Source: Prorocentrum cordatum (lineage: Eukaryota). Taken from it: a stretch of 54,795 bases of DNA. Of the stretch, positions 6,269-42,047 are shown piece after piece. Within the stretch, counting starts at the first letter, position 1; the number at the start of each line of letters is the position of its first letter. A model generated the notes under the pieces. That model saw only the letters and a list, made by a program, of their open reading frames with translations, did no database searches and was not told where the DNA came from. The translations under genes and the position numbers were made by a program. The DNA lies in assembly GCA_963575745.1 (NCBI GenBank), contig CAUYUJ010000209.1, positions 62,001 through 116,795 of the forward strand. The letters are read 5' to 3'.

Positions 6269-6432
6269 TGACCAATTACTGCCCGTACTGCTCATGCGCG
6301 ATTGCTAGTAAGGCATGCGCGCGAGATGGCGATCGCTGGCATTGCCGTCACTGGTGACATCGATACTGGGGGCGTTCTCTGTCCCATTCTGACATCTACT
6401 CTCGCGGTTGCAACCGCTCCCGACCGAGCTCT

Positions 6433-6575
6433 TGGGGAAACCACAAAGTACCGATACCGCTACCCCCCGGACCTCTCCCAGGGTGCGTTCTGACCAGAAC
6501 TTCGAACCCCGGAGGCCCAATAATAAAGGGAAAACGGCCGAAGGCTAGCGGTATGGGTACCTGTTCCTCCTCTGA
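6433..6575. mobile_element. 143-bp sibling of the intron-4 element outside the anoctamin gene
   Basis: Its start tggggaaaccacaaagtaccgataccgctaccccccggacctctcccagggtgcgttctgacca resembles 37666-37730, and its end tagcggtatgggtacctgttcctcctctga resembles 38020-38050. TSD gctct at 6428-6432 and 6576-6580. Confidence 0.85.
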
Positions 6576-8704
6576 GCTCTCATGTCCTTTCCAACTCGCA
6601 CTATCGCTTGAGGAAGGAGCGACTAAGCATGAACGTTCGGAGGGCAGCGCGGAGTGCTTGCGCCCGCGCTGGGCCCCTTGCCCGGGCGCGCGAAGCGCGC
6701 CGGGGGGTCGGCGCCAGAAGTCCCGCCAGGTGGGGCAGATCGCCGGCCTGCGCAATCCACAACGGAACTCCGAGAGATGATCCTTTAGGTTTTGTCTTTT
6801 CTCCTCGGATCGTACTCCGGGGAGGAAGAAGAAGAAGGAGAAGTGGTGCGGGAAGGCACGCCGGGAGCGCCATCCTGCTCTGGCAGCGCCAGGTTTACGG
6901 CCTCGTGGTCGCCGTTGTTGGCGAGCACCACCTCGAACATGACAGGGTCCCTCTGGTTGAATTTCGCCTGGGCCAACCGGCATCCGTATCAACAGACCTG
7001 TCTCCACTACGAGGCGGCCAGGGCTTCTTAGTGCCACCAGCCTCTCCGACAACGAGGCCAGGATTCTCCCGGTGGAGCTGCTGGCCGCGTCCAGAATGCG
7101 GCGTCGCGACAAGGCCTCGCCATGGATGCCCCCCAGTCGCGCCAGGGGTTCGCCCGAGATGCCCCACCGATACCGGTTTGCGTCGCCAAAGGGGGTCATA
7201 GGACGCAAAAAACCCACCCCCATAATAACCACCCCGACAAGCACCAAGGAAGGAATCGAACAGGGCAGGGCTGTTTAGTAAACGCTCAGGGCCGTTTAGT
7301 AAACGCCAATTGTCGGAGTCTGGGTGGTTTTCCCTCCTTTGGCACCAGCCCGCTGGGCCCGAACCAACCACTCCGCGCCAGACCAGGTCAGCCCCGTGAC
7401 GCACGGAGGATGTGAGAGGGCAGACGGCGGAGCGCACCGCTCGTGGAGATGGTTGCCCAGCTCTCCTGTGTTGGGTTACCGTTTTCGAATACCACTGTCG
7501 CTCCCAAGCCCGCCCCGACCAGTCTCCAGGTCTCCTGCTTGCCTCATCGCGTCCCGTGTCTCCTGCGTCCCTCATCGCTTCAGTTGTGGATTCCTCACCC
7601 CAGTGGGTGCTGTTCAGCGCGGGACTGCCGCCACTTAGCTGCGCCCATGGGGGGTCTAGCGGAATGCGGCCTTGCGCAGACCCAAACGATACCTCGCCCC
7701 TCCCCCCCTTGGGTGCTGCCAGGCATACAACTGTCGACATTGATCTGCGCCCCTGAGGAGTCTAGCAAAGCGCTGTCTTACGCAATCCAAATGCGCCTGG
7801 CTGGCGATCCACCGATCGAGAAAGACGATGACAATATCTTCCCGTCAACGTGTACGTCCTACGTAAGATGCCGCGAAACAGCAAGTCACTGCATTACACA
7901 TGATATCGCCTGCGCTTTGTGCTGCGAGTATCTCTGCCTGGTCGTATGCCCGAGGCGGCGGTACAAGCGCAGGGCGAAGAAAAAGGAGTGAAAGAAATCC
8001 AGACCTCCGACCTGGCCCACCGTCAGGGGACGTCAACCATCCACCTCACCGAGCAAGACCAGGCTGATCATGGGCTCGGGACCGGTGCGTACACCCTTAT
8101 GGCTCGACCAGCGAAGCACGTGCACCCGTCCTGGGCCCAGGGCTCGCCCAGCCTGGATCGGTGAGGTGGACATCGCTGAAGCCCTTCGCCACTGAAGAAG
8201 TGCGCGCCAGGAGCTCTCGAGGCCAGCGGCGTCCGGAGGGGCGAGAGACGGGAGTCGCGATGGGCCCCGCAAACGGGGACTTCGCTAAGCCAGGACATTG
8301 GCGCACCCAAGGAAACTAAGCATCCATGGGCCGACGCGTTCCCCACGTTTTTTCGTTGCCTCCAGCTGGATCTGGCGAGAAGTCTTGGCCTGCGCACGAA
8401 GTCCTGGCTTCAGGGACCGAGGCTGGCGCGAGAAGGGGGAGAACAGCGGGGGGGGGAAGGGGGGGGGGAGAACAATCGAGCTGGGATCCGCGCTGCATCG
8501 CCGAAAGATCGGCGATATGCCCCCGATAGCAAGACCGCACGTCCGTGGGCAAGGCGCGCTATCGCTGCCGCAGCGCTTGCTCTGCACCCGGAAGACGTCG
8601 CGCCGCGGCCGAGGCCGCGTCGGCCGAGCGCCCGACGGCTCTCCACCGTGGCCACACGCCCTCGACATGCCCAGTGCCTCTAGCAGGTGCCCTTCACGGG
8701 GCTC

Positions 8705-15138: not shown

Positions 15139-16299
15139 ACAAAAACCTTCTCCCTGTCGCACCACCAGGCGCCAGCCCCAACGCTTCGCTCGAGGCTTCC
15201 ACATAACTTCCGACTCTGCAGCTTCAAGCTCCTACTAGCTACGCAAATAGAGGCCAATATCTCATGGCGCTCTCGCCGTAAATCCGCGCACATTCGCTTT
15301 TAAAGGCTGTGAACAAATACGCGGCTGGAGGCAGGATTGTTTCCAGTGTGCAAGTTACCGCAGAAAAGTTCCAAACCAACGATCATGACGAACGTTAGAT
15401 GGTGCAACAGCCACACAGGTGGAGGGCGGTTCATTTTCAAAGTGAGCCTCTCGCTTCAGAAACCTTCCCATATTACAACTACGACAACGGCAGCCTGAAC
15501 AGCTGTAAGAGCTGTAAGCCCTTCGAGGCGAAGCTCTCGGCCCGAGGCGTCCTCGGGCTGCTCGACCAGACGTGCGTGCACGCGCACGGGCGACGCGGAC
15601 GGGACAGCTCTTCGTCAAAACGGGGCTCTCGCGAGACGCTTCGCTGAACTTGAACTTTCCTGCCCTTGGGGGACACCGAGAGGCACCGCTACCGCCTGCT
15701 GCCCGGACCTCTCTCCCGGGGGGGGTCCTGGCCAGGCTCTCGCGGCGAATGCAGCGGTGGCGACGAGGAATGCCCAGGAGGCCCAAAATCGGGAGCGGCC
15801 AAGAGGGGGGTGTCCAAGAGGGGGGGGGTGTAAATCATGACCGGCGGCATGTGCGCGGCCCAGCGGGGGGGCCAGGGACGTAATGAAACAAGAAGGGGCG
15901 CCACGAAATCTGGGGAAATATCATGGCCCGCTCCATGATATCCACCCCCCCTAGTCATCACCGCATGTAGGCCCAATCCCAACCCACTGGGCCCAATCCC
16001 AACCAACCGGGACCAATCCCAACCAGTGCGAAAAGCAAACTGGGCCCAATCCCAACCATCTTGGGATAGCCCTACAAAAGGATTTTAATTGTAGAGAAAC
16101 CCAAGACGACTGCGAAGACCAAGTGACACCCCTTCTGTCAACGCAGAGGATCTGGAAGCCAACACGCGTGCTCGAGTTGGAATTGGTCTCAATTTATGGT
16201 CTGCGCACGAGCGCTACGTTAAGATGAGCAAGAGGGCACCGAAGCGTAAGCAAAAACGCACCGAATTGCATCGATTCTAAAATATGCAAATGGATCCTC

Positions 16300-16413
16300 C
16301 TAGTAGTAGAAATAGTAGTAGTAGTGGTGGTAGCAGTAGTAGTCGTAATCGTAGTCGTAATAGTCGTAGAAGTCGTAGTAGAAGTAGTCGTAGTCGTAGT
16401 CATAGTCGTAGTC

Positions 16414-16463
<50 letters not shown>

Positions 16464-16491
16464 CGTCGTAGTAGTAGTAGTTGTAGTAGTT

Positions 16492-16522
<31 letters not shown>

Positions 16523-16554
16523 TAGTAGTAGTAGTAGTAGAGGTAGTAGTAGTG

Positions 16555-16594
<40 letters not shown>

Positions 16595-16596
16595 TA

Positions 16597-16639
<43 letters not shown>

Positions 16640-16681
16640 CAGTAGTAGTAGTAGTGCTCGTAGTAGTAGTAGTAGTAGTAA

Positions 16682-16735
<54 letters not shown>

Positions 16736-17116
16736 TGGTGGTAGCAGTAGTAGTCGAAATCGTAGTCGTAGTAGTCGTAGTAGTCGTAGCAGTCGTAGTA
16801 GTAGTCGTCGTAGTAGTAGTAGTAGTGGTCGAAGTAGCAGTAGTAGAAGTAGTAGTAGTGGTAGTAGTAGTGAAATAAAGAGCAATTGTAGTAGCAGTAG
16901 TAGCAGTAGTAGTAGTAGTAGTAGTTGTAGTAGTAGTAGTAGTAGTAGTGGTAGTAGTAGTAGTAGTATTAGAAGTAGTAGTAGAAGTAGTAGTAGTGGT
17001 GGTGGTAGTAGTAGTGCAAATAGTAGTAGTAGTAGTAGTAAGCCAGTATATGTAGTAGGGTAGTAGTAATATAGGTCGTAGTAGTAGTAGTAGTAGTAGT
17101 AGAAGTAGTAGGAGTA

Positions 17117-17153
<37 letters not shown>

Positions 17154-17215
17154 AAGTAGTAGTAGCAGTAGTAGTGGTGGTAGCAGTAGTAGTAGTAGTA
17201 GAAGTAGTAGGAGTA

Positions 17216-17252
<37 letters not shown>

Positions 17253-17422
17253 AAGTAGTAGTAGCAGTAGTAGTGGTGGTAGCAGTAGTAATCGAAATCG
17301 TAGTCGTAGTAGTCGTAGTAGTCGTAGTAGTAGTAGTAGTAGTCGTGGTAGTAGTCGTAGTCGTAGTAGTAGTAGTAATAGAAATAATAGAAGTAGTAGT
17401 AGTAGAAGTAGTAGTAGTGCTC

Positions 17423-17459
<37 letters not shown>

Positions 17460-17524
17460 CAGTAGTAGTCGAAATCGTAGTCGTAGTAGTCGTAGTAGTC
17501 GTAGCAGTCGTAGTAGTAGTAGTC

Positions 17525-17568
<44 letters not shown>

Positions 17569-17893
17569 CGAAGTAGCAGTAATAGAAGTAGTAGTAGTGG
17601 TAGTAGTAGTGAAATAAACAACACTTGTAGTAGCAGTAGTAGTAGTAGTAGAAGTAGTAGTAGTAGTGGTGGTAGTAGTAGTAGTACAAATGGTAGTAGT
17701 AGTAGTAGTAGTAGTAGCAGTGGTGGTGGCAATCGTAGTCGTAGCAAAAGTAGTCGTAGCCGTAGTCGTAGTTGTAGTAATCTTAATCGTAATAATTGTA
17801 GTAGTGGTACTCGTAGTAGCAGTAGTAATGGAAGCAGTAGTAATCATAGTCGTAAACGGTGTCGTAGTCGCAGTCGTAGTCGTAGTCGTGGTC

Positions 17894-17926
<33 letters not shown>

Positions 17927-17929
17927 CTA

Positions 17930-17965
<36 letters not shown>

Positions 17966-17986
17966 GTGGTGGTAGTCGTAGTAGTC

Positions 17987-18036
<50 letters not shown>

Positions 18037-18094
18037 CGTACTAGTCGTAGCACTATAGTAGTAGAAGTAGTAGTCGTAGTTGACATTAGTAGTA

Positions 18095-18168
<74 letters not shown>

Positions 18169-18183
18169 GTAGTAGTAGTAGTC

Positions 18184-18243
<60 letters not shown>

Positions 18244-18326
18244 TAGTCGTAGTAGCAGTAGTAGTAGTAGTAATACTCGTAGTAGTAGTGAAATAAGTAT
18301 AATAAGTAGTAGTAGCAGTAGTAGTA

Positions 18327-18363
<37 letters not shown>

Positions 18364-18671
18364 AAGGAGCAGTGGTGGTAGTAGTAGCCGCAGTAGAAGT
18401 AGTCGTAGTCGTAGGCGTGGTTGTAGTAGTCTTAGTCGTCATAGTGATAGTCGTAGTAGTAGTCGTAGTAGTAGTCGTAGTAATAGTAGTAGTAGTAGTA
18501 GTAGTAGTGGTAGTAGTAGTAGTAGTAGTAGTAGTAGTACTAGTAGTAGCAGTAGTAGTAATAGTAGTCGTCGTAGCCGGTGTCGTAGTCGTAATCGTGG
18601 TAGTAGTAGTAGTAGTAGAAGAAGTAGTAGTAGTGGTAGTAGTAGTAGTAGTAGTAGTAGACGTACGAGTC

Positions 18672-18709
<38 letters not shown>

Positions 18710-18830
18710 CGTAGTAGTAGTAGTAGTAGTAGTAGTCGTAGTAGTAGTAGTAGTAGTAGTAGCAGTAGTACTAGTAGTAGCAGTAGTAGTAATAGTAGTC
18801 GTCGTAGTCGGTGTCGTAGTCGTAATCGTG

Positions 18831-18867
<37 letters not shown>

Positions 18868-19008
18868 AAGTAGTAGTGGTGGTAGTAGTAGTAGTAGACG
18901 TAGGAGTCGTAGTAGTAATAGTAGTAGTAGTAGTAGTAGTCGTAGTAGTAGAATTCGTAACATCATTTGTATTAGTATTAGTAGTAGTAGTAATAGTAGT
19001 AGTCATCT

Positions 19009-19042
<34 letters not shown>

Positions 19043-19043
19043 C

Positions 19044-19097
<54 letters not shown>

Positions 19098-19130
19098 ATA
19101 GTAGTAGTAGTAGTAGTGGTAGTGGTAAGT
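16300..19130. repeat. 2.8-kb degenerate (TAG)n tract with internal block duplications
   Basis: Direct reading. The landmark gtagtgaaataa recurs at about 16868, 17607 and 18286. Confidence 0.95.
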
Positions 19131-19134
19131 GGTA

Positions 19135-19560
19135 TTCGAAGGAATCTGGTGGTAATAGTGATAGGAATCCAAAAGGAATTCCCAAGAATCCGAAGGAATC
19201 CATAGGAATTCCGAAGAATCCAAAGGAATCCGTAGGAATTCCGAAGAAATTCCGAAGAATCAGAAGGACGGCTGAGGAATTCCGAAGAATCCAAAGGAGT
19301 CCTGAGGAATTCCGAAGGAGGAATCCAAAGGAATTCCGAAGGAGGATTCCAAAGGAATTCCGAAGGAGGATTCCAAAGGAATTCCGAAGGAGGAATCCAA
19401 ATGAATTCCGAAGGAGGAATCCAAAGGAATTCCGAAGGAGGAAGCCAAAGGAATTCCAAAGAATTCCGAAGGAATCCCAAGGAATTCCGAAGGAGTCCTA
19501 AAGAATCCTCAGGAATTCCGAAGAATTCGAAGGGATCCGGAGGAATTCCGAAGATCCCAT
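19135..19560. repeat. GGAATTCC-based tandem repeat (24-bp unit aggaattccgaaggaggaatccaa)
   Basis: Direct reading. Confidence 0.9.
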
Positions 19561-20339
19561 CCGTGGTTGGAATTGGTCTCATTTTTGGTTGGGTTGGAAT
19601 TGGTCTCATTTGTGGTTGGAATTGGTCTCTTTTCTGGTTGCAATTCGCTCCGAACGGTTGGAATTGGGACTAGTCGGTTGTAATTCGTACCATTTCGAGT
19701 CATCACCCCCCTCTTTTCCGCTCCCGACAAAAAGGGGAAAACGAGGGAAGGGTAGAGGTACAGTGCCGGTTTTAATGCATGCTCCGCGTGCGGACCATGT
19801 ATGAAAAATGCAGGGTTTAGTATTACAAACAACGATGAGTTCATGCGTAAGTTCATTCATACATCAATCATGTATTAGGAATCCTATAGTTTAAAAATCC
19901 TATGTAGTAAAAACTGCCCTGCATAGGTACCGTTTCCTCCTCGGAGTCCTTTGCCTCTTGCGCAGTCCGTGCCCTTCGGCCGGGGGGATGCGGGGCACGT
20001 CTCCCTCGACCGGGAGCGCTCGCGCCCGCACGGCAGGCCCGCGGGCCGCCCGTCCCTCCAGGAGGCCCTGCGGGGGCCCGGGGACGGGAGGGTGCGCTGC
20101 AGCATCGTTGGGGAGCGTTTCGCTTACGCCAGTCCTCCTCCTCCTCCTCCTCCTCCTCCTCCTCCTCCTCCTCCTCCTCCTCCTCCTCCTGCTGATGCTC
20201 CTCCTCATCACCCTCCTCTTCCGTCCCCTTTTCCGGTGCGATGCGCCCTCCGCGTCGCACGCCCAGGCGTGTCGGCAGGGTGGGCTGGACGTTCCGCCTG
20301 AGACGACCCCGGCATGTGTGATCCTGAGGCGCGGACTGC

Positions 20340-24970: not shown

Positions 24971-26034
24971 CCGCGAGGACGTCAGGCCCCCAGCGCCGGG
25001 CCTTCGATGCGCCCGGCGCCGACGCAGTTGCTCACCGGGTACTCGGCGCTGAGGCCCTCGGACTTGCCCCTGGCGCGCCAAGCGCGGCAGGTCTGCACCG
25101 TGCGGAGGGGGGCGGGGCTGCCCCCCTGCGGAGCGGCCAGGCAGGCCGAGGAGCGAGGATCGGGGGCCGAGGAGAAGTGGCGCACAGGGGTCGAGGAGCG
25201 CGGAGGAGGGTCGAGGGCCGAGGGACTAGGATCGAGGAACGAGCGCCGGTGAGGCAGGTCGAGGAGCGAGGACCGAGGTTCGTCGGGATGATTGGCCTCT
25301 TCTTCTGCACGAAGCATGGCGCCCACTCATCGCAAGATCAGCTAGCGCGCCAGGATGCACGACAGCGCCATGCGAGCAAGCGCCATGCAAGCATCGGGCC
25401 GCATCGGATAGTCGGAACATCGGAATCTAATCGGATCGAGCCTGCCAAACCATCAAAGCAAACCTTGAGTGCCGATAAGGCAGGTCGCGGAAGAGGATCC
25501 AGGTACGTGGATAGTTGGGGATGGCTCTTCTATGCGAAACACGACGCACAGTTCTCCACAATGAAGCACGCACTGCACTATAGACATCGAGCACTGTGAC
25601 AATATCATCTTGCGATGGGATGGATCCCCCACACGGGCAATCGGCAGGGAAAATGGGAGCGCCAATACTAAGACCGACGAACGGTTGAAGCGGTGGCGGC
25701 GCTTGAAGCACAGCGCCGTGCCAGAGGCGTCGCGCGGACAGTGCCAGTCTGCCAAATATGAAGCGGGAGGAGCAGGCCACAGGAAAGAGGATGTCTCTTT
25801 CCCTGATGGTGGGGCCTCTGGAAGCCTCCAGGACCTCTCGACCTCTTCCCCCACGGCCGGCCTCTCCTCCCGAGCCGATGCTTGACGGCCCCGGTGGCCG
25901 AAACCGACCCGCTCAGGCCACGGATGGCGACAGGCTGGCCGCCTCGATTGTCGAGGCGCTGGATGCCTGGGGCCCTTCTCCTCGCCTCCTCTCGGCGGCG
26001 GGCCCTGCGGGGGCGGGTCTTCTCGGAAGGCTCA

Positions 26035-26125
26035 GGAGACCTCCCGCCTTCTGAGAAGCCTTCTCCGCCGCCTTCTGAGAAGGCCTGCCCCTTCTCTCCC
26101 ACTTCCACTCTCGGCGCGCCGCCGA
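26035..26125. mobile_element. Partial copy of the 38260-38463 MITE family
   Basis: ccgccgccttctgagaaggcct...cgccgccga resembles 38408-38463. The other end was not found. Confidence 0.55.
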
Positions 26126-26783
26126 ATTCACCTCCGTGGACCTCACCTTGTGATCTACACATGTAAATAAACATCTTCGAATACTCTTACATCGGGAAAC
26201 CCCGGGTCGTCTCCCACCCCGTGCAGAAATCCAGCTCGGGCGCTCCCGCCGGCCAGAAATAAGATGTTCCGTTCTGGAGGCCCCTTCCAGCCTTTCTTGC
26301 CTGCCCGAGCGGGCCCCAGATCGCCTCCTGCCTGCTCTGTCGCACGGAGCTCCGAAACGGCCCAAGAGCGCTGCAATGCGCCCGAGAAAACCTCAAGACG
26401 ACCCAAACGGCCGCTAAGACGCCCCACGAGGGCTCCAAGATGACTCCCAAGGGGGCCTTAGATGGTGTGTAAGTTTCCGTGCGTTTCCCAAGATTCTGAC
26501 GTATCTTTTGTTTCCGAATTGTCACCGCCCAAGACGGCCCAAGAGGCCCCCAAGATCGCCCCAGTACGACCCAAGAGGATCCTAAGAGGGCCCCAAGACA
26601 GACCAAGAGGACCCCAAGACGGACCAAGAGGGTCCAATTGCGAGCCAGTCCCAAAAAATGTTGTCGCCGAGATTACCGAGAGGGCCCCAAGAGGCCTTAA
26701 GAGGCCCCCGAGAGGCGCCCAAGAGGCCGCCAAACAGACCCTAAGAGGCCCAACTAATCCATGTTCGCCTCAGCAATCTTCCC

Positions 26784-31923: not shown

Positions 31924-32145
31924 TGAGGTGGAGCGTGGGGGGGGGAGGAACCGCCTCAGGGGGGAAAACATCGCCCCAGGATCGGCGATCCATCGCCGAT
32001 AGAGATCGACGATAGACCCCCGGGTAGCGAAGACGCACGTTCCTGGGCTGCGCGGCCTGTCGGGCTCCTGTCGGCGAGGGGCGATGAGGGGTCGCTGCCT
32101 CCCCCCCTGAGCCGATCCCCCCCCCACACACACGTCCTCCGCCGG
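31924..32145. mobile_element. Sibling of the intron-1 element
   Basis: Its start tgaggtggagcgtgg..ggaaccgcctcagggggg resembles 40902 onward, and its end gagccgatccc..cctccgccgg resembles 41252-41287. Flanks are ctgct/ccgct. Confidence 0.6.
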
Positions 32146-35654: not shown

Positions 35655-36580
35655 TATGTTTCCCCTTCTGACACACAATGCGACCCTGCCAGCGCCTGCA
35701 GAGGCAGCCTCCCCGAGCGGCCGGCCGGCCGGCCAGGCGACGGGCCCGGCGGAGAGGCCGGGGAGAGGCGCAGGCCCCGCGCGGGCACGCGCTCGCGACG
35801 TCGGCGCCGCTCGCGGGGGCGGAGCCGGGCAGCACGAAGGATTTTTTGGACTTGCAGAGTCGCCACTCGCAAATGGCCTGGATCTGCCGCGGGGAAGGCA
35901 CGACAAACGGCACGAGGCAGACGCATATGGCTTCTCGGACGCTTGCGAGCAGGCACTCTGCGAGCAGAGGAGAGCGCGCTCGGCGAGCTTTGGGGCACCC
36001 CCAGGGCCAATCGGCCGAAACGGTGGCAGCTCATTCCCGGCGCCGTTCTTCGACCTCGGCCTCCGGGGCCCGTGCTCGGGCCGTCCTGGCCCCCTCGATG
36101 GCTGAAGCTGTGGGACGGGGGGGGGATGTCTTGCAGAGAGATCGGGGAGTGTCCGACTCTGCTGGGCGGTCTGCGGCGGATGCGCTCGGGGCAGCTTCCG
36201 TTATGCTGGTCCACGCACTGGACGGCCAAAGAAACAGTGACTGGGCTGCCGGAGCCCTCCCGTTAAAGACGCGCAGAGAAGATCTGACAAAACTGTTACG
36301 GGGCCATGAGAGACAGCGAGAGGGATCAGGGAGGCGCCTGTGCAAGGACACCCGCAGCCGAGTGCTTTTTTGACGTCTTGCCCGATAGAGAGCTTCAGAT
36401 CGGGCAGCGCGGTGCAGTGCGGCAATCCTACAGATGATGCCCGCCCTCTGCGAGGAACGGCGCGCATACCGCACAGGATGCCGCCATCCCTTCGACCCAT
36501 CCGGCGGCGCCCTTTCGAGGAGAGCCGCGGGGGACGCGCGCGGGCCAGCCGACCACCGCCTGGCAGGGCGGGCCCAGGCG

Positions 36581-37027
36581 TCACCTGGTGGGCGCGCGTG
36601 CCTCGCTCGACTCACGCCCTGCCCGCGGCGTCCTCGTGAGCTGGCCGTCCAGGCGAGGGATGGCGAGCCAGTCCTCGTTCTGCACGATCCTGCCCAGCGG
36701 GATCAAGTCCTCGACATCACAGCCTAGGTGAAGATGAACGGTTCTGTTCGTGGTGGAGGACGCGAGATTGAGGGAGGCCCCAAGCGACGGCATCCGCGAG
36801 GCCTTCTTCCCCGGGGCCGGCCCGGACTCATCGCTGGAAGCCTCTACGTCGTCGCAGTCGCCGCCTAAGCCCGAACCGCTGGAGCATGAGCCCTCGTCTG
36901 CGGCCTCGTCACCGACCAGGGCGTGACCAGCCTGATTGGACGGTCTGTGGGACGACTCTGCAGCTTGCGCGTCCATGGCGGCCTCCGTGATCACGCGGCT
37001 GGCGTAGTTCCGGCGCCTGACCAGGAC
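36581..37027 (-). CDS. Anoctamin exon 6 (C-terminal tail)
   Basis: Acceptor gcccAG|G in phase 0. Reads VLVRRRNYASRVITEA... to TGA at 36581, in the frame of ORF 36581..37219. Confidence 0.65.
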   Translation of the reverse strand, partial: VLVRRRNYASRVITEAAMDAQAAESSHRPSNQAGHALVGDEAADEGSCSSGSGLGGDCDDVEASSDESGPAPGKKASRMPSLGASLNLASSTTNRTVHLHLGCDVEDLIPLGRIVQNEDWLAIPRLDGQLTRTPRAGRESSEARAPTR

Positions 37028-40000
37028 CTGGGCACAGGCTCGAGGCGCCCGAGTCTGGTTACGCAGGGGCTCGCTTCGCCACGTCGGGCGGGCGGGGCCC
37101 CAGCGGGTGGGCCTGGCTGGCCGCCACCCCAACAAGTTGGGCCGGCGGGCCAGGAAGGCGGGCGGGCGGGCGGGCTTTCCAGCATGCGAGCGAGCTGGCT
37201 TCAACGGGTGGAGCCTCACGAGCAGCGGGTGAAACAGAAGAGGTGGGCGGCGAAGCGTCCCGGGCGGGACGATCTGGGCGAAGGGAGCTGGGCGAAGCGA
37301 GGCCCGATCGAAGCGAGCCAGGCGAAACGAGCCATGCGAAGCGAGCCTGGCAGAGCGAGCCCAGGCGAAGCGTCCCCGAGAAGCGAGCCTCGGGCAAAGC
37401 GAGCTGGGCGAAGCAAGCAGGGCGAAGCGATACCCAGGCGAAGCGCGTCTACCCGTCTATTCCCCTATGGCCTTCGCGTGTGGGGACGTTGGCGGCACGA
37501 CGATGTCCACCAGCGCCCATATGCCCGATATCAGCATGAACCACATAACGAGCCCACTAATCTTCGCGAGCAGAAGGGCGCCGTGGAAGAAACGCCCCCA
37601 CAGCACGACGAGCACCCCGGAAAAGAAAATGCCAAAGTTCATCAGCACGGTCATCACGCCCGACCTGGAGAGACCATGAAGGTACCGATCCCGCTGCTCC
37701 CCGGACCTCTCCTGGGGTGCGCTCTGACCAGGAGGCGAATCCAGCGGTGGCGACGAGGGCCTCCCAGGAGGAGGAGGAGGAGGAGGAGGAGGAGGAGGAG
37801 GAGGAGAGAAGGAGGAGGAGGAGGAGGAGGAGAGGAGGAGGGGAGAGGAGAGGAGAAGAGGGGAAGAGGAGGAGGAGGACGAGGAAGAGGAGGGGGGAGG
37901 AGAGGAGGAGGGGGAGGAGGAGGAGGAGGAGGAGGAGGAGGAGGAGGAGGAGGAGGAGAGGGAGGAGGAGTAGGCGGAGGAGGAGTAGGCGGAGGAGGAG
38001 GGGGAGAACGAGGGAGGGGTAGCGGTGGGGGCACCTTTCCCTCCGCCTGACGACCAGGCCCCCACGCCTCCGAGCTTGTGGGGGAGCGGGCGCCGCGTAA
38101 ACTTCCACGTGAGGAGCAGGGCCCGGAAGCGCAGCGCGCAGGCGAAGTGCACGAGGCACAGGGGCACCACCATGGGCTGCAGCGTCCCGAAGAGCATCAC
38201 GAAGCCCAGGCCGATGACGAGCTGGAGCATGTTCTCGATCTGCGCCCGCATGTTGAGGGCCGGCGGCGAGCGAGGGGGGGGGGAGGCGAGGAGGAGGAGG
38301 CCCTCTCGGAGGGCTCGCGCAAGTCCCCCGGCCTTCGGGGAGGTTTGCTGAGCCCTCCCCGAAGACACGGGCAGCTTCTCAGGAGGCGCGAGGGCTTCTG
38401 AAGAGTCCCGCCGCCTTCTGAGAAGGCCTTCTCCTTCTCGCTTCCCCCCTCGCTCGCCGCCGAGAAGGGCGTGTACTTCGACTGCTCCTCCAAGAATGAT
38501 CGGTGCTTCACGCTGCCGTCCTCGCTCGTGCTTTTCTGAAGCTTGTAGTCCTCCCACCGCAGCACGAGCCACACTTGCACCGCCTCGAGCACGCTGAGGC
38601 CGATGCTGCAGGCCAGAAGGATACCCACCAGCATGCTCACCTGCCTCTGCAGGGCCAGGAAGCAACCAGCCTCAGGGCAATGCCCAGACACCAGCTGGCT
38701 GAAAGCCACGGATACGCAGGGCCAATAATTGTTCACGGCCTGGAACAGAAACTGACCCCACACCCAGCTGTCATGGTAATCCTGGTCATACTTGTGATTC
38801 TCCATCTCGACGAGCCTGGCAGAAAGCGCATTGTACAGCAGCTCGGAAATCTTCACGATGATACTGAGCCACAGAGACGCAACCAGATCGAGGTCTCCCC
38901 GATGGATGTGGACCCAGGTCCCTGATATTAGCATCACCGCGGCACAGCAGACGAGAGTGATGCAGACTGACAAGACTCGCAGGCCGACTGCCGTTTTAAA
39001 AGGCGCATTCTCTTCCATAAGGTTCCCGTCGACATCCGACTTCATGAAAACGCCCTTGAAGCTCGGGCGAATGATTTGGTCGATGGCATCTTGCTCGTTC
39101 CACAGCGTCTTGAAATACTCTTCGTCTCGCCTCCACAGGTTCGCCATGACCCTCGCCCAGGCAAGTATGAGGATGGAGAACGGCATGAGCTGCCTCTCTG
39201 GGACGACCGTGCGATCCCCAAGCCGTACACCGACGTCGACCCCGAGCAGTTGCACGGCGAGGCGGACCGGAACGAACTTCAAGACGGTGATCAGGATCGC
39301 TGCCACGCTGAGGCATACCAGGCCCTTGGACCAGGGCTGAACCTAAACGGTTTTTTTGTTTTCGTTTTGTTGTCGTTTTCCCTCGCACTTGTCTCGAATC
39401 CACCTCCACCGCAAAACGAAATCAAAACGAAAACGGCCCACGAAATCGCCAAAACACCGTTTAGGTCCAGCCCTGCCTTGGACCACACGCCCTGCCACAC
39501 GAAGCCGAACGCCAGCTGCGAGCCGTAGTACTCCCCCACGAGCGGAATGGGCTGCACAAAGCTCAGGTCCGTCACCACCTCCAGCGGCGCCCAGGTGTCC
39601 CGCAGCCTGTTCAGCCACAGCTCGCTGTGGCACGGGTACCAATCTGTGACGATGCCGACGTCCTTGACAGCTTCGAGGTTGAGGAATCGTGTGAGTTCGA
39701 GCTGGATAACACGGATGCGCGCCGAGCCGCTCATGACCGAGCCTTCGACGCCACTGTCGCGGTATAGCCGGTACAGTGCCCGCTCATCAGGCTCGTCGAT
39801 TGCGTTGGCCTTGAACAGCGACTTGACGAGCCTTTGATCGTAGCGCAAGAACGGAGGCGACGATTGTGGATCCCGTGGGTCCTGAAGGATCTTAAGTCGT
39901 TCTACCACCGCGTGCGTCGTCTGGAGCTCAACGTTCCCCCGCTGGAGGTAATGTGAGACGACCTCCGGCCGGTTGAGGCTGATGCAAAGAAACAACTCGT

Positions 40001-41448
40001 CGCCATCGATAGAACTGAACAGGTTCACGGAGAAACCAAGGAGCGGCAATGACCTACACATGTCCTTCAGGACAAGGATCCTCAGCTCCCCCATAGTTAT
40101 GTCCAAGGCCTCGCCGACCGTGCTCCTGATGCGACGCAGGGCCTTCTCCGCGGCCGTGGCGCGCGACACCTTGAGATCGTGGTCTCTGATGACGGTCTCG
40201 ATCCCTTGGAAGAAGCCCTGGTCCGGCCGGTGAGCCAAGGCACCCTGCAGCATTTCGCGCGTGACGAGCTTGTCCCTGTCGTGCTGCAGCTCGTAGCTCG
40301 GATGGGGAAACACGAAAACGACGTCGGCATGCATATGGAACTTGTTTGTCGACTCCTGACTGGCATCTAGCTTCTGCGCATGGGCCGCGTCTTCCCATGT
40401 GACGCTCGACGTGGACGTGGTGGTGGCCTCGATTTGCCGCCGCCAAGCTCGAGGGGTGAGGATCTGCGCCACCGTCGCCGTCTCCGTCTTCGGCCGCGAG
40501 TGGTCGTCCCCAAAGTGATGATGCTCCTCGTGGTCGTGCGTATAGAAGAACATGAAGTATACAGTACCCCACAAGATGCCACTGACCACAATGACGGGCA
40601 GGGTCAACGTGCTGCTCGTTCGCGCCTCCATCCCTGGCATCAGCCGCTCGATAAGGTGCAGGTTTGAGATGAACATGTGCCTCATGCCAGATGGGAGCCT
40701 GCGGAAGTCGTCGATGCACTCCCTGAACCTCTGCTTCACGCCATCCACGATCGAGGCGTCGCCCTCCAAGATCGCCTTCTTCACGTCGTCGGGATCGAGA
40801 TCATGCTCATCGGGAATGTCCACGTCAACGTGGCCGGGAAGATCCGGCAGCGGAGGCTCAGTCGTGCCGGCAAGGGGAGCGCCCGCGTGCAGTCGTAGAC
40901 CTGAGGAAGAGCCGCGGGCGGGGGGGGGAACCAGCTCAGTGGGGGGGAATCAGCGATACACGTCGTTCATTTCTGATCGTGCTCATTTCTGATCGTGCTC
41001 GTCTCTAACGGTTCCTGGCCCCCCAGTGGCCAGGAAGAGGCCCAGGACAGAACCGTCAGAAATGGAAGGATCTCGACCCCCCAAAAAATTGGAGGAACTT
41101 TCGAAAAATCAGAGAGGAACAACGTGCACGTCGCCAAAACCTCGGCGATATACACCCCCGACGGAAAATCCGCACCCTCCCGGGCTTGGTAGGCTGTCGG
41201 GGCCCCGGCGGCGGAGAAAGTGGGGCCGTCGGGGGACGGGGCGCCCCCGCGGAGCCGATCTCTCCCCCCCGAGCGCGCTCCCCCCGAAGACCGCGGCGGC
41301 CCAGGAGAGCGGCCACCGCCCCGGCGGGGGGTAGCGACCCGGGCGCGGCGTGCGGCTCGGAGGCGTGCCCCGGGCCCCGGGGCTCCCCGAACGGGGCCGC
41401 CGTGCGGGCGAGGAGGCACAGCGCCAGGCACCGGAGGGAGTGCTCCAT
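36581..41448 (-). CDS. Anoctamin/TMEM16-family membrane protein, 6-exon model, about 1090 aa
   Basis: Anoctamin motifs occur in order: QPIPLVGEYYGSQLAFGFVWQG, LWRRDEEYFKTLW, IRPSFKG, ENHKYDQDYHDSWVWGQFLFQAVNNY, C..GCFLALQRQV, ENMLQLVIGLGFVMLF, RRPLPHKLGGVGAW. Exons 41448-41292, 40900-39477, 39324-38458, 38239-38055, 37664-37472 and 37027-36581 are phase-consistent and sum to 3273 nt. The exon 3/4 junction is uncertain. Confidence 0.88.
37472..37664 (-). CDS. Anoctamin exon 5 (TM9-TM10)
   Basis: Acceptor ctccAG|G, two hydrophobic segments (SGVMTVLMNFGIFFSGVLVVLWG and ISGLVMWFMLISGIWALVDIVVP), donor AAG|GC. Confidence 0.8.
37666..38050. mobile_element. TG...GA element with 5-bp TSD forming intron 4 (37665-38054, GT-AG), carrying a (GGA)n tract
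   Basis: TSD cgacc at 37661-37665 and 38051-38055. Both ends are homologous to the copy at 6433-6575. Confidence 0.85.
38055..38239 (-). CDS. Anoctamin exon 4 (TM7-TM8)
   Basis: IENMLQLVIGLGFVMLF...RRPLPHKLGGVGAW. The 5' boundary is uncertain (38239-38259). Donor TG|GT. Confidence 0.82.
38260..38463. mobile_element. 204-bp MITE interrupting anoctamin between TM6 and TM7
   Basis: Perfect 19-bp TIRs cggcggcgagcgagggggg (38261-38279 / 38444-38462). Near-TSD gaggg/gaagg. Removing 209 nt restores the frame. Confidence 0.85.
38458..39324 (-). CDS. Anoctamin exon 3 (TM1-TM6)
   Basis: Lies in the frame of ORF 38197..39306 and contains ENHK...FLFQAVNNY. The 3' boundary is uncertain (38458-38468). 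Confidence 0.85.
39332..39475. mobile_element. 144-bp hAT-like MITE forming intron 2 (39325-39476, GC-AG)
   Basis: 19-bp TIRs cagggctgaacctaaacgg / ccgtttaggtccagccctg (1 mismatch). Perfect 8-bp TSD ccttggac at 39324-39331 and 39476-39483. Confidence 0.93.
39477..40900 (-). CDS. Anoctamin exon 2 (extra TM, cytosolic N-domain, start of TM1)
   Basis: Lies in the frame of ORF 39291..40823. Acceptor tcttcctcAG|G, donor AAG|GC, contains the QPIPLVGEYYG motif. Confidence 0.88.
40902..41287. mobile_element. TG...GA element with 5-bp TSD forming intron 1 (40901-41291, GT-AG)
   Basis: TSD agacc at 40897-40901 and 41288-41292, degenerate terminal inverted repeats, sibling copy at 31924-32145. Confidence 0.8.
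41292..41448 (-). CDS. Anoctamin exon 1 (signal-peptide-like N-terminus)
   Basis: Starts ATG with MEHSLRCLALCLLARTAAPFG. The G|GT donor at 41291 is phase 1 and matches the acceptor at 40901. Confidence 0.65.
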
Positions 41449-41560
41449 GGTCGGCCGGGAGGCGCAGGGAGCTGCACGGGCGGGCTCGTGGCGTGTCCGT
41501 CGGGGTCGTTAGGTATCATGTCCTCTTCATTGCGTGGTAGAACTGCGGCATCGAGACGCG

Positions 41561-41588
41561 CTCGAGCCGACTTGAGATAAAATAACGG
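41561..41588 (-). other. Relic dinoflagellate spliced-leader sequence(s) upstream of the anoctamin ATG
   Basis: Minus strand reads ccgttattttatctcaag-tcggctcgag versus DinoSL CCGTAGCCATTTTGGCTCAAG (11/15 at the 3' end plus a partial second copy), about 115-140 nt before the ATG. Confidence 0.55.
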
Positions 41589-42047
41589 ACGCACACACAC
41601 ACACTGACAGACAGACAGACGGACGTGCGCGCAGACGCACACACGCAGACAACCACGCAGACAACCACGCACACACACACACACGAACACCCGCACACAA
41701 GCACAGACACACACGCACACAAACAAACAAACAAACAAACAAACAAACAAACAAACAAACATCATGAACCAGCGAGCAGGGGGACGCCGTCCGGCCGGGG
41801 ATCAATGTTGGCACATGCGGTGTGCTATGTTGCGGCCACGTGTATACAATAGCTGCAATACCGCACACACACACACGCACATTATCCTCCTGCGCAGCGT
41901 TGTCGTAACGATTGGTCGCAGACTGAAGGGACACATCAGCATAAATTGCAATCGCACGCGTGACGCTCGTGCTGAAGACAAGGAACGTTCTCGCCTGGGT
42001 TACGGGCGACCCGAAACGAAATGTACAAAGCGAGAAACAGAAAAATA

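What the first reader, a model, noticed from the sequence alone, without database searches (positions are those of the whole stretch)
37661..38055. TSD-built splice sites: a CA-ended element landing at G|GT makes a perfect intron, with a non-intronic sibling at 6433-6575
Seen on the coding strand: GCCT-GGTCG-[tcagg...tctcca]-GGTCG-GGC. The first TSD copy supplies the G|GT donor, and the element's terminal CA plus the G of the second copy supply CAG|G. Splicing 37665-38054 gives GVGAW-SGVMTVL with no nucleotides added. A 143-bp sibling with the same two ends at 6433-6575 has a different 5-bp TSD (gctct) that cannot give a precise intron. Inference: the element is mobile, and it becomes a harmless intron only at GG[T/C]-starting targets in one orientation.
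Basis: partly seen in the sequence, partly recalled or inferred. Interest (0 to 1): 0.85.

Follow-up and report, generated by a model that had tools for sequence, protein, structure and literature searches.

The report
Transposon insertion spliced out as intron
A small mobile DNA element landed inside a membrane-channel gene and is cut out of the messenger RNA as a perfect intron, using a splice signal made from the short duplication it created on landing; this way of making introns has already been described in several marine protists.

Summary
A 385-bp non-coding element (37666-38050) flanked by a perfect 5-bp duplication (GGTCG on the gene strand) interrupts an anoctamin/TMEM16-like gene on the minus strand. 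Removing 38054..37665 (390 nt, GT..AG) is the only 1 of 12 possible registers with G[T/C/A]..AG ends. RNA contigs in 4 of 4 runs laid, from four studies, skip exactly these 390 nt. All 10 of 10 homologues run through the junction without a gap. The sibling at 6433-6575 (TSD GCTCT) is real, and there is a third copy at 15667-19945 (TSD 4 of 5).

This is an introner: a MITE-like transposon that makes an intron by recruiting its duplicated target. The mechanism is published for Aureococcus, Micromonas, Symbiodinium, Polarella and Amoebophrya. It is therefore a new member of a known kind.

No genome is held and no further copies were found. A neighbouring intron of the same gene (38255-38463) weakens the rule: it is also a hairpin element with 5-nt flanks, and it is removed from RNA with non-canonical ends.

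The parts
37666..38050 (-). Element A: 385-bp non-coding MITE-like element, in intron sense on the minus strand (starts TCAGG, ends CTCCA)
   Evidence: Homology to B and C begins and ends at these bases. It has no Pfam, tRNA or Rfam match.
38051..38055 (-). Upstream TSD copy GGTCG. Its first G is the last exon base and its GT is the splice donor.
37661..37665 (-). Downstream TSD copy GGTCG. Its first G (37665) completes the acceptor CAG; the remaining 4 bases are exon.
37665..38054 (-). Intron 4 of the anoctamin-like gene: 390 nt, GT..AG, phase 2
   Evidence: RNA contigs of 4 of 4 runs skip 390 nt here, with 5 ambiguous letters and CT..AC on the + strand at cut +4. P0001 reads GVGAW|SGVMTVL.
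37766..38006 (.). (AGG)n microsatellite grown inside element A. It accounts for most of the size difference from B.
   Evidence: TRF period 3, 83.7 copies; alignment of A, B and C
38055..38254 (-). Exon 4 (upstream of the element). It encodes the anoctamin segment ending ...GGVGAW.
   Evidence: Pfam PF04547 profile positions 327-387 end at the junction. The alignment to anoctamin-6 chains ends at ..GAW. RNA contig pieces support it.
37472..37664 (-). Exon 5 (downstream of the element), SGVMTVL...PHAK
6433..6575 (-). Copy B: 143-bp sibling in the same orientation as A, with TSD GCTCT (+) at 6428-6432 and 6576-6580. None of its 12 registers has G[T/C/A]..AG ends.
   Evidence: (folds as a hairpin: 32 pairs between the first 40 and last 45 nt)
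15667..19945 (-). Copy C: both family ends are present, and the interior is swollen by a 2.8-kb (TAG)n array and other tandem repeats. TSD is GCCCT/GTCCT (4 of 5). One GA..AG register exists on the minus strand.
   Evidence: nhmmer left end E 2e-25; right end in two pieces, E 1e-8 and 4e-4.

Best explanation
Element A is a non-autonomous cut-and-paste-type DNA transposon: MITE-like, with a 5-bp target-site duplication and subterminal inverted repeats that fold into a hairpin. It inserted into a coding exon of an anoctamin/TMEM16-like gene at the target GGTCG.

The insertion created an intron. The spliceosome uses the GT inside the upstream TSD copy as donor. The acceptor is CAG, made of the element's terminal CA plus the first G of the downstream TSD copy, and it is preceded by a pyrimidine-rich element end. 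Because exactly the element plus one TSD copy is removed, the mRNA is restored to its pre-insertion sequence.

Shown: the anatomy, the family, the TSDs, and the exact RNA junction.

Inferred: that insertion created the intron rather than landing in an older one; this follows from intron = element + TSD with nothing left over. Also inferred: that the spliceosome does the cutting, and that copies at unsuitable targets in exons are lost by selection.
For: - Anatomy and coordinates were read directly.
- The family has 3 copies in the window, each with a different 5-nt flank repeat (5/5, 5/5, 4/5), and homology ends at the repeats. Chance rates are 1.5%, 0.47% and 2.0%.
- Only 1 of A's 12 registers has G[T/C/A]..AG ends, and it is the one that fits the protein.
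- One 3.1-3.6-kb RNA contig in each of 4 of 4 runs laid (four studies, two of them poly-A RNA libraries) skips exactly 390 nt at 37660>38051, along with the other four introns.
- The best holders among the 24 runs listed carry 0.62-0.69 of the sampled words. That equals the exon share of the stretch, 3365 of 4951 bases.
- P0001, a 1093-aa protein on contigs of about 3.6 kb, reads straight through the junction.
- 10 of 10 homologues have no gap at the junction.
- The Pfam anoctamin match and the anoctamin-6 alignment both stop at the junction in the unspliced reading.
- Intron 1 of the same gene has the same geometry: 5-nt repeat GGTCT, an element ending ..TCA, and GT..AG in register 1.
- The hairpin is clear in copy B: 17 of 20 in the inverted repeat and 32 end-to-end pairs.
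Against: - Only one copy of this family is known to be an intron, so calling it an introner family rests on n=1, plus a look-alike (intron 1) with no significant sequence similarity (best E 0.049).
- All RNA evidence is from assembled contigs, not raw reads, and no DNA run of the same strain was found. An expressed allele or paralogue without the element is therefore not formally excluded.
- Intron 3 shows that this organism removes a 5-nt-flanked hairpin element without GT..AG, so the GT/AG of A may not be what decides its removal.
- No transposase or autonomous partner was found: 0 convincing Pfam hits in 36 other ORFs.
- A's own inverted repeat is weak (14 of 20).
Confidence: 0.85

Rival explanations
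1. Element A is removed in the register of its duplication and hairpin, not because of GT..AG. The same relaxed or structure-guided removal that takes out intron 3 would take out A at any target, and the GT/AG at this site is incidental.
For: - Intron 3 (38255-38463) has a 19 of 20 terminal inverted repeat and 5-nt flanks matching 4 of 5. It is skipped in 4 of 4 runs, and none of the registers compatible with the mRNA has G[T/C/A]..AG ends.
- Copy B and intron 3 fold with their ends paired.
- Farhat 2021 (passages read) describes such introns in Amoebophrya: inverted repeats of 8-20 nt, direct repeats of 3-5 nt, and more than 60% non-GT-AG.
Against: - A and intron 1 both sit at GGTC targets with GT..AG in register 1. 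That is 2 of 2 for the elements with TC...CA ends, which is not expected if the target were free.
- 4 of 5 introns of the gene have G[T/C]..AG|G ends.
- In A's minimum-energy fold, no pairs link its first 40 and last 45 nt.
Confidence: 0.09
2. The mRNA comes from another allele or paralogue that lacks the element (an empty site), so the window's copy is an interrupted, unspliced gene.
For: - No DNA run holding the whole locus was found; the highest share of words was 0.69.
- The evidence is contigs only.
- Genomes of this style are described as rich in duplicated genes (Dougan 2023, passages read).
Against: - The same contig skips all five introns and matches the window's exons with 0 other letters in 3 of 4 runs and 2 in the fourth. 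An empty-site copy would have to lack all five, which makes it a cDNA.
- The removed piece has GT..AG ends in the one register that restores the frame.
- Low-depth contigs (2.8 against 149) reach into the element in run X1, although these may come from other family copies.
Confidence: 0.03
3. An older ordinary intron stood here, and either the element later landed in it or the 5-nt repeat is a chance product of splice-site consensus.
For: In this gene, AG|GTC recurs at 3 of the 4 acceptors that end in AG, so part of the repeat resembles the local splice consensus.
Against: - The intron is exactly the element plus one repeat copy, 385 + 5 = 390, with no base left over.
- Homology with B and C ends at the repeats.
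- B and C carry different repeats at the same boundaries.
Confidence: 0.02

Closest known systems
Introner-like elements of dinoflagellates (Symbiodinium, Polarella glacialis; Roy et al. preprint 10.1101/2020.10.14.339549; parts 1-2 of 4 of the whole text read)
   Same: These are short TIR elements with a TSD. [quoted passage not shown] G follows the AG acceptor, and GC donors are common. Several families with different TSD lengths occur in one genome. In some classes the splice sites span the element/TSD boundary, and a 5-nt TSD class exists.
   Different: Here the donor is at positions 2-3 of a 5-nt TSD (G|GTNN), and the AG is the element's last A plus the first G of the TSD. I did not see this exact register among the classes described. 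No sequence comparison with their families was possible. Only one intronic copy is known here, against hundreds to thousands there.
Introners of Aureococcus anophagefferens and Micromonas pusilla (Huff, Zilberman and Roy 2016). The paper is not held; it is known here through Roy 2020, Farhat 2021 and the review PMC11282704 and from recall.
   Same: A non-autonomous DNA transposon carries one splice site and co-opts the other from the duplicated target, so splicing restores the mRNA.
   Different: The lineages, TSD lengths (3 nt and 8 nt as described) and sequences differ. Here the element supplies only part of the acceptor.
Introner elements and non-canonical introns of Amoebophrya (Farhat et al. 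2021, PMC7789003; passages read)
   Same: Inverted repeats of 8-20 nt and direct repeats of 3-5 nt overlap the exon/intron boundaries. The same layout is also seen in some canonical introns. Non-GT-AG introns are removed precisely, as intron 3 is here.
   Different: Element A itself is GT..AG. The window is gene-sparse and full of satellites, unlike the compact Amoebophrya genomes described there and (average intergenic length 1.5 kb).
Nonconventional introns of euglenids and hemistasiid diplonemids (PMC11282704 and PMC12621601; passages read)
   Same: For intron 3 only: non-canonical ends, G/C-rich inverted ends that pair, short direct repeats at the junctions, and a suspected MITE origin.
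   Different: Four of the five introns here, A included, follow G[T/C]..AG|G. No lineage evidence points to Euglenozoa.

Membership tests
Introner / introner-like element | The intron consists of a member of a repeated sequence family | tested here: met
   Element A has two relatives in the window: nhmmer left end E 7e-31, 2e-25 and 3e-19; right end E 4e-16, 2e-11 and 1e-8.
Introner / introner-like element | Many introns in different genes derive from the same family | not testable with these tools
   No genome is held. The metagenome scan gave 27 loci, all chance (best 13.9 bits, no right-end hit). The viral scan gave 0. Only 1 of 3 copies is known to be intronic.
Introner / introner-like element | The splice sites are carried by the element and/or recruited from the TSD, so splicing leaves the mRNA unchanged | tested here: met
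   Intron = 385 + 5 nt; GT comes from the TSD and CA+G from element plus TSD. RNA contigs skip 390 nt in 4 of 4 runs. There is no gap in 10 of 10 homologues.
MITE (non-autonomous TIR transposon) | Short, with no coding capacity | tested here: met
   B is 143 bp. A is 385 bp, of which 241 bp are microsatellite. No Pfam family was found.
MITE (non-autonomous TIR transposon) | Target-site duplication of fixed length | tested here: met
   5 nt in all three copies: 5/5, 5/5 and 4/5.
MITE (non-autonomous TIR transposon) | Terminal inverted repeats | tested here: inconclusive
   The inverted repeats are subterminal, starting about 13 nt in: 17 of 20 in B, 14 of 20 in A, 10 of 20 in C. The outermost 12-13 nt of the two ends differ. 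B folds as a hairpin.
MITE (non-autonomous TIR transposon) | An autonomous partner with a transposase and the same ends | tested here: not met
   None was found in the window. The interior of C is tandem repeats, and 36 other ORFs gave no transposase domain. The rest of the genome could not be searched.
Amoebophrya-type non-canonical introner | Boundaries other than GT-AG | tested here: not met
   Element A is GT..AG. Intron 3 of the same gene does meet this feature.
A named DNA-transposon superfamily with a 5-bp TSD | Superfamily-specific terminal motif and transposase | not tested
   No transposon library is among the tools. I make no assignment.
Anoctamin / TMEM16 (the host gene) | Pfam PF04547 domain | tested here: met
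   E 9e-27 (94.4 bits; cutoff 28) for exon 3. The unspliced exon-4 reading scores 27.5 bits, just under the cutoff.

The most novel reading that the evidence does not exclude
In this organism, hairpin elements with 5-nt duplications are taken out of RNA in the register of their duplication whether or not they offer GT..AG, as intron 3 shows. A structure-guided or very relaxed removal system would then work beside ordinary splicing. If the genome is, as its style suggests, a free-living high-GC dinoflagellate, this would extend the Amoebophrya/euglenid kind of non-canonical, transposon-derived intron to core dinoflagellates. Their gene-finding pipelines allow only GT/GC/GA donors (Dougan 2023 methods), so such introns would be missed. 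The GGT target of element A would then be a preference, not a requirement.
Probability: 0.2. Interest if true: 0.65.

Novelty: new member of a known kind. Interest (0 to 1): 0.3.

Why it matters
This is a clean, base-exact example of intron birth by transposon insertion, and RNA confirms that the new intron restores the message. One gene carries five introns that all bear repeats at their ends, from at least three unrelated element families. This shows how strongly such elements shape gene structure in this genome. It does not open a new question, because the mechanism and its variants are published. The part worth following up is the neighbouring non-canonical intron. It bears on how far removal depends on GT..AG in this lineage, and on whether standard annotation pipelines miss such introns.

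Tried and rejected
- Metagenome scan with a degenerate core pattern that fits A, B and C: 27 loci. All were judged chance, because the left-end profile scored at most 13.9 bits (the pattern itself) and the right-end profile hit 0 of 27. This used the only metagenome scan, so orthologous loci in relatives could not be fetched.
- Viral contigs, same pattern: 0.
- Earlier findings of this scan: 0 by place, by sequence and by words.
- The listing of cluster members for names of the homologues: the database was switched off, so no source name or taxon was obtained.
- Pfam on the two short exons alone: 0 families. The match appeared only with longer readings.
- tRNA or SINE origin of the element: 0 tRNA genes and 0 Rfam families in the window.
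- C as an autonomous element: rejected, because its interior is tandem repeats.
- Intron 1 as a member of A's family: not supported by sequence (best E 0.049). Only the geometry is shared.
- Spliced-leader relic, using a 15-nt motif recalled from memory: 0 matches at up to 2 mismatches. A by-eye resemblance about 120 nt upstream of the start codon is too weak to use.
- Parts of introns without RNA cover are not used as evidence; only the joints are.
- Huff 2016 could not be read.
- Supplements of Roy 2020, Gozashti 2022 and Dougan 2023, which list families and species, were not opened. They might hold this family.

Full report
**What is there**

On the minus strand, the pentamer GGTCG stands at 38055-38051 and again at 37665-37661. 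Between the two copies lie 385 bp that start TCAGG and end CTCCA. Most of the interior is an (AGG)n microsatellite at 37766-38006.

**The gene**

The surrounding minus-strand reading frames belong to an anoctamin/TMEM16-like gene. Pfam PF04547 matches at E 9e-27 over 38200-39342. In the unspliced reading of 37460-38671 it scores 27.5 bits, and that match ends at profile position 387 of 460, right at ...GGVGAW. The alignment to solved anoctamin-6 chains also ends at GAW.

A search of the large protein collection gave 10 relatives among 6405 candidates. The best is P0001, 98% identical and 1093 aa, on contigs of about 3.6 kb. That is too short to hold introns. P0001 reads ...KLGGVGAWSGVMTVLMNF....

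Mapping P0001 back on the window gives six exons and five introns:

| Intron | Coordinates | Length | Ends |
|---|---|---|---|
| I1 | 41291..40901 | 391 nt | GT..AG |
| I2 | 39476..39325 | 152 nt | GC..AG |
| I3 | 38463..38255 | 209 nt | no canonical register |
| I4 (the finding) | 38054..37665 | 390 nt | GT..AG, phase 2 |
| I5 | 37471..37028 | 444 nt | GC..AG |

In an alignment of the 10 proteins, none has a gap at junctions 2, 3, 4 or 5.

**RNA**

Of 24 runs listed for 36550-41500, 18 hold half or more of the sampled words. The top shares are 0.62-0.69, which equals the exon share of the stretch: 3365 of 4951 bases. No run holds more, so no DNA run of the locus was found.

I laid four runs from four studies, two of them poly-A RNA libraries. 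In each, one contig of 3.1-3.6 kb joins across all the introns:

| Skip | From > to | Ambiguous letters | Note |
|---|---|---|---|
| 444 nt | 37026 > 37471 | 3 | |
| 390 nt | 37660 > 38051 | 5 | CT..AC on + at cut +4, i.e. GT..AG on the gene strand |
| 209 nt | 38254 > 38464 | 2 | GA..GA on + |
| 152 nt | 39323 > 39476 | 10 | |
| 391 nt | 40896 > 41288 | 5 | CT..AC at cut +4; in run X16 this joint is on a separate 251-nt contig |

The exons match with 0 other letters in three runs and 2 in the fourth. These are assembled contigs, so they show that the joined form exists. They do not show its share or the absence of other forms.

**The element family**

Profiles of the two ends find three copies in the window and nothing else convincing:

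- A, the finding.
- B, at 6433-6575.
- C, at 15667-19945. Both its ends are present, but its interior is swollen by a 2.8-kb (TAG)n array and other tandem repeats.

All three lie in the same orientation. Their 5-nt flanks on the + strand are CGACC/CGACC, GCTCT/GCTCT and GCCCT/GTCCT. In this satellite-rich window such flank matches occur at 1.5%, 0.47% and 2.0% (4 or more of 5) of positions at the respective spacings. Three in a row at homology-defined boundaries is about 1e-6.

The inverted repeat is subterminal: 17 of 20 in B and 14 of 20 in A. B folds into a hairpin with 32 pairs between its first 40 and last 45 nt. The outermost 12-13 nt of the two ends differ, so the element is polar.

No protein family, tRNA or Rfam family is in or near the copies, and there is no transposase in the window.

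**How it works**

Of the 12 ways to remove the element plus one repeat copy (six registers on each strand), exactly one has G[T/C/A]..AG ends for A, and it is on the gene strand. The donor GT is bases 2-3 of the upstream repeat. The acceptor is the element's CA plus the first G of the downstream repeat, behind a pyrimidine-rich element end. Since intron = 385 + 5 with nothing left over, the insertion made the intron; it did not land in an older one.

C has one (GA..AG, minus strand). Whether B or C is transcribed is unknown. No recognisable coding sequence flanks them: 0 curated Pfam hits in 36 ORFs.

**The rest of the gene changes the picture**

- I1 has the same geometry as A: a 5-nt repeat GGTCT, an element starting TC and ending TCA, and GT..AG in register 1. 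It has no significant sequence similarity to A. Its first half resembles two other loci in the window.
- I2 is a different MITE, with a 19 of 20 terminal inverted repeat and an 8-nt duplication. Its GC donor is the last G of the duplication plus the first C of the element, and its AG comes from the duplication.
- I3 is a third kind: a 19 of 20 G/C-rich terminal inverted repeat and 5-nt flanks CCTTC/CCCTC. It is removed from RNA in 4 of 4 runs although the registers compatible with the mRNA read TC..CC, CT..CT or TC..TC.
- In three runs, contigs match the first ~40 nt of I3 and diverge at its first base. Others do the same at the start of I2. These families therefore have further transcribed copies (table 7).

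So all five introns carry end repeats, and one of them is non-canonical.

**Comparison with what is known**

This is the introner mechanism.

- Roy et al. [quoted passage not shown] In Polarella they describe 15 classes, including 5-nt and 8-nt TSDs, splice sites that span the element/TSD boundary, and a GC donor made from the last G of the TSD and the first C of the element. That last case is exactly what I2 does.
- Gozashti et al. 2022 (passages read) list cases where both sites are wholly or partly recruited from the TSD.
- Farhat et al. 2021 (passages read) describe Amoebophrya introns with inverted repeats of 8-20 nt and direct repeats of 3-5 nt, most of them non-GT-AG, and the same layout in some canonical introns.
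- The review PMC11282704 (passages read) sets these beside euglenid nonconventional introns.

I did not see the exact register of A (G|GTNN, with the AG completed by the TSD) among the classes described. I could not compare sequences with published families, and their supplements were not opened.

**Kind of genome**

The window has 60% G+C and is full of satellites. It has one recognisable gene in 55 kb, GC donors in 2 of 5 introns, and AG|G at 4 of 5 acceptors. This fits the table for a high-GC free-living dinoflagellate in Dougan et al. 2023 (passages read): 59.7% G+C, 51% GC donors, 80% AGG acceptors and 26-kb intergenic regions. It fits the compact Amoebophrya genomes less well. This is an inference from style. 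No marker gene or name was available.

**Verdict**

The proposed rule, only GGT/GGC targets in one orientation, is untested, and I3 weakens it. I rate the finding a new member of a known kind, of modest interest. The non-canonical neighbour is the better lead.

Noticed in passing
window 38255-38463 (minus strand), intron 3 of the same gene: This 209-nt intron has a 19 of 20 G/C-rich terminal inverted repeat and 5-nt flanks CCTTC/CCCTC. It is skipped in RNA contigs of 4 of 4 runs, but no register compatible with the mRNA has G[T/C/A]..AG ends (TC..CC, CT..CT, TC..TC). Contigs in three runs match its first ~40 nt and diverge at its first base, so other copies are transcribed.
   Followed up: partly
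window 39325-39476 (minus strand), intron 2: This 152-nt GC..AG intron is a different MITE, with a 19 of 20 terminal inverted repeat and an 8-nt duplication GTCCAAGG (10 letters ambiguous in RNA). The GC donor is the last G of the duplication plus the first C of the element, and the AG comes from the duplication. A contig at depth 186 in run X1 shares its start and then diverges.
   Followed up: partly
window 40901-41291 (minus strand), intron 1; also 31944-32143 and 8470-8665: This 391-nt GT..AG intron has a perfect 5-nt repeat GGTCT, and its element starts TC and ends TCA. The geometry is the same as the finding, but there is no significant similarity to it. Its first ~190 nt align weakly (about 65%) to two other places in the window.
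   Followed up: partly
window 16301-19127 inside copy C; 37766-38006 inside copy A: Family copies act as seats of microsatellite growth: a 2.8-kb (TAG)n array in C and a 241-bp (AGG)n array in A. Both start just after the same conserved block of the element.
   Followed up: no
window 19772-19917: An A+T-rich stretch of about 147 bp splits the right end of copy C into two pieces. It may be a nested small insertion.
   Followed up: no
window 26000-26127 (minus strand): A shorter relative of the intron-3 element (75% over 95 nt) has ends TCGGCGGCG...CGCCGCCGA but no matching 5-nt flanks.
   Followed up: no
whole window: Only one recognisable protein-coding gene lies in 54.8 kb. Of 36 other long ORFs sent to Pfam, none passed a curated cutoff. 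Tandem repeats are very dense (131 TRF rows), including several trinucleotide arrays of about 0.8 to 2.8 kb.
   Followed up: partly
window 37028-37471 (minus strand), intron 5: This is a 444-nt GC..AG|G intron. Its ends share AGG, then differ at one base and match again (AGGCC/AGGTC), so a decayed 5-nt duplication is possible. Its interior is a 14/28-nt tandem repeat.
   Followed up: no
window about 41570-41589 (minus strand), about 120 nt upstream of the start codon: A short stretch resembles, by eye only, the recalled dinoflagellate spliced-leader motif. The formal search at up to 2 mismatches found nothing. The RNA contigs end within about 10 nt of it.
   Followed up: partly
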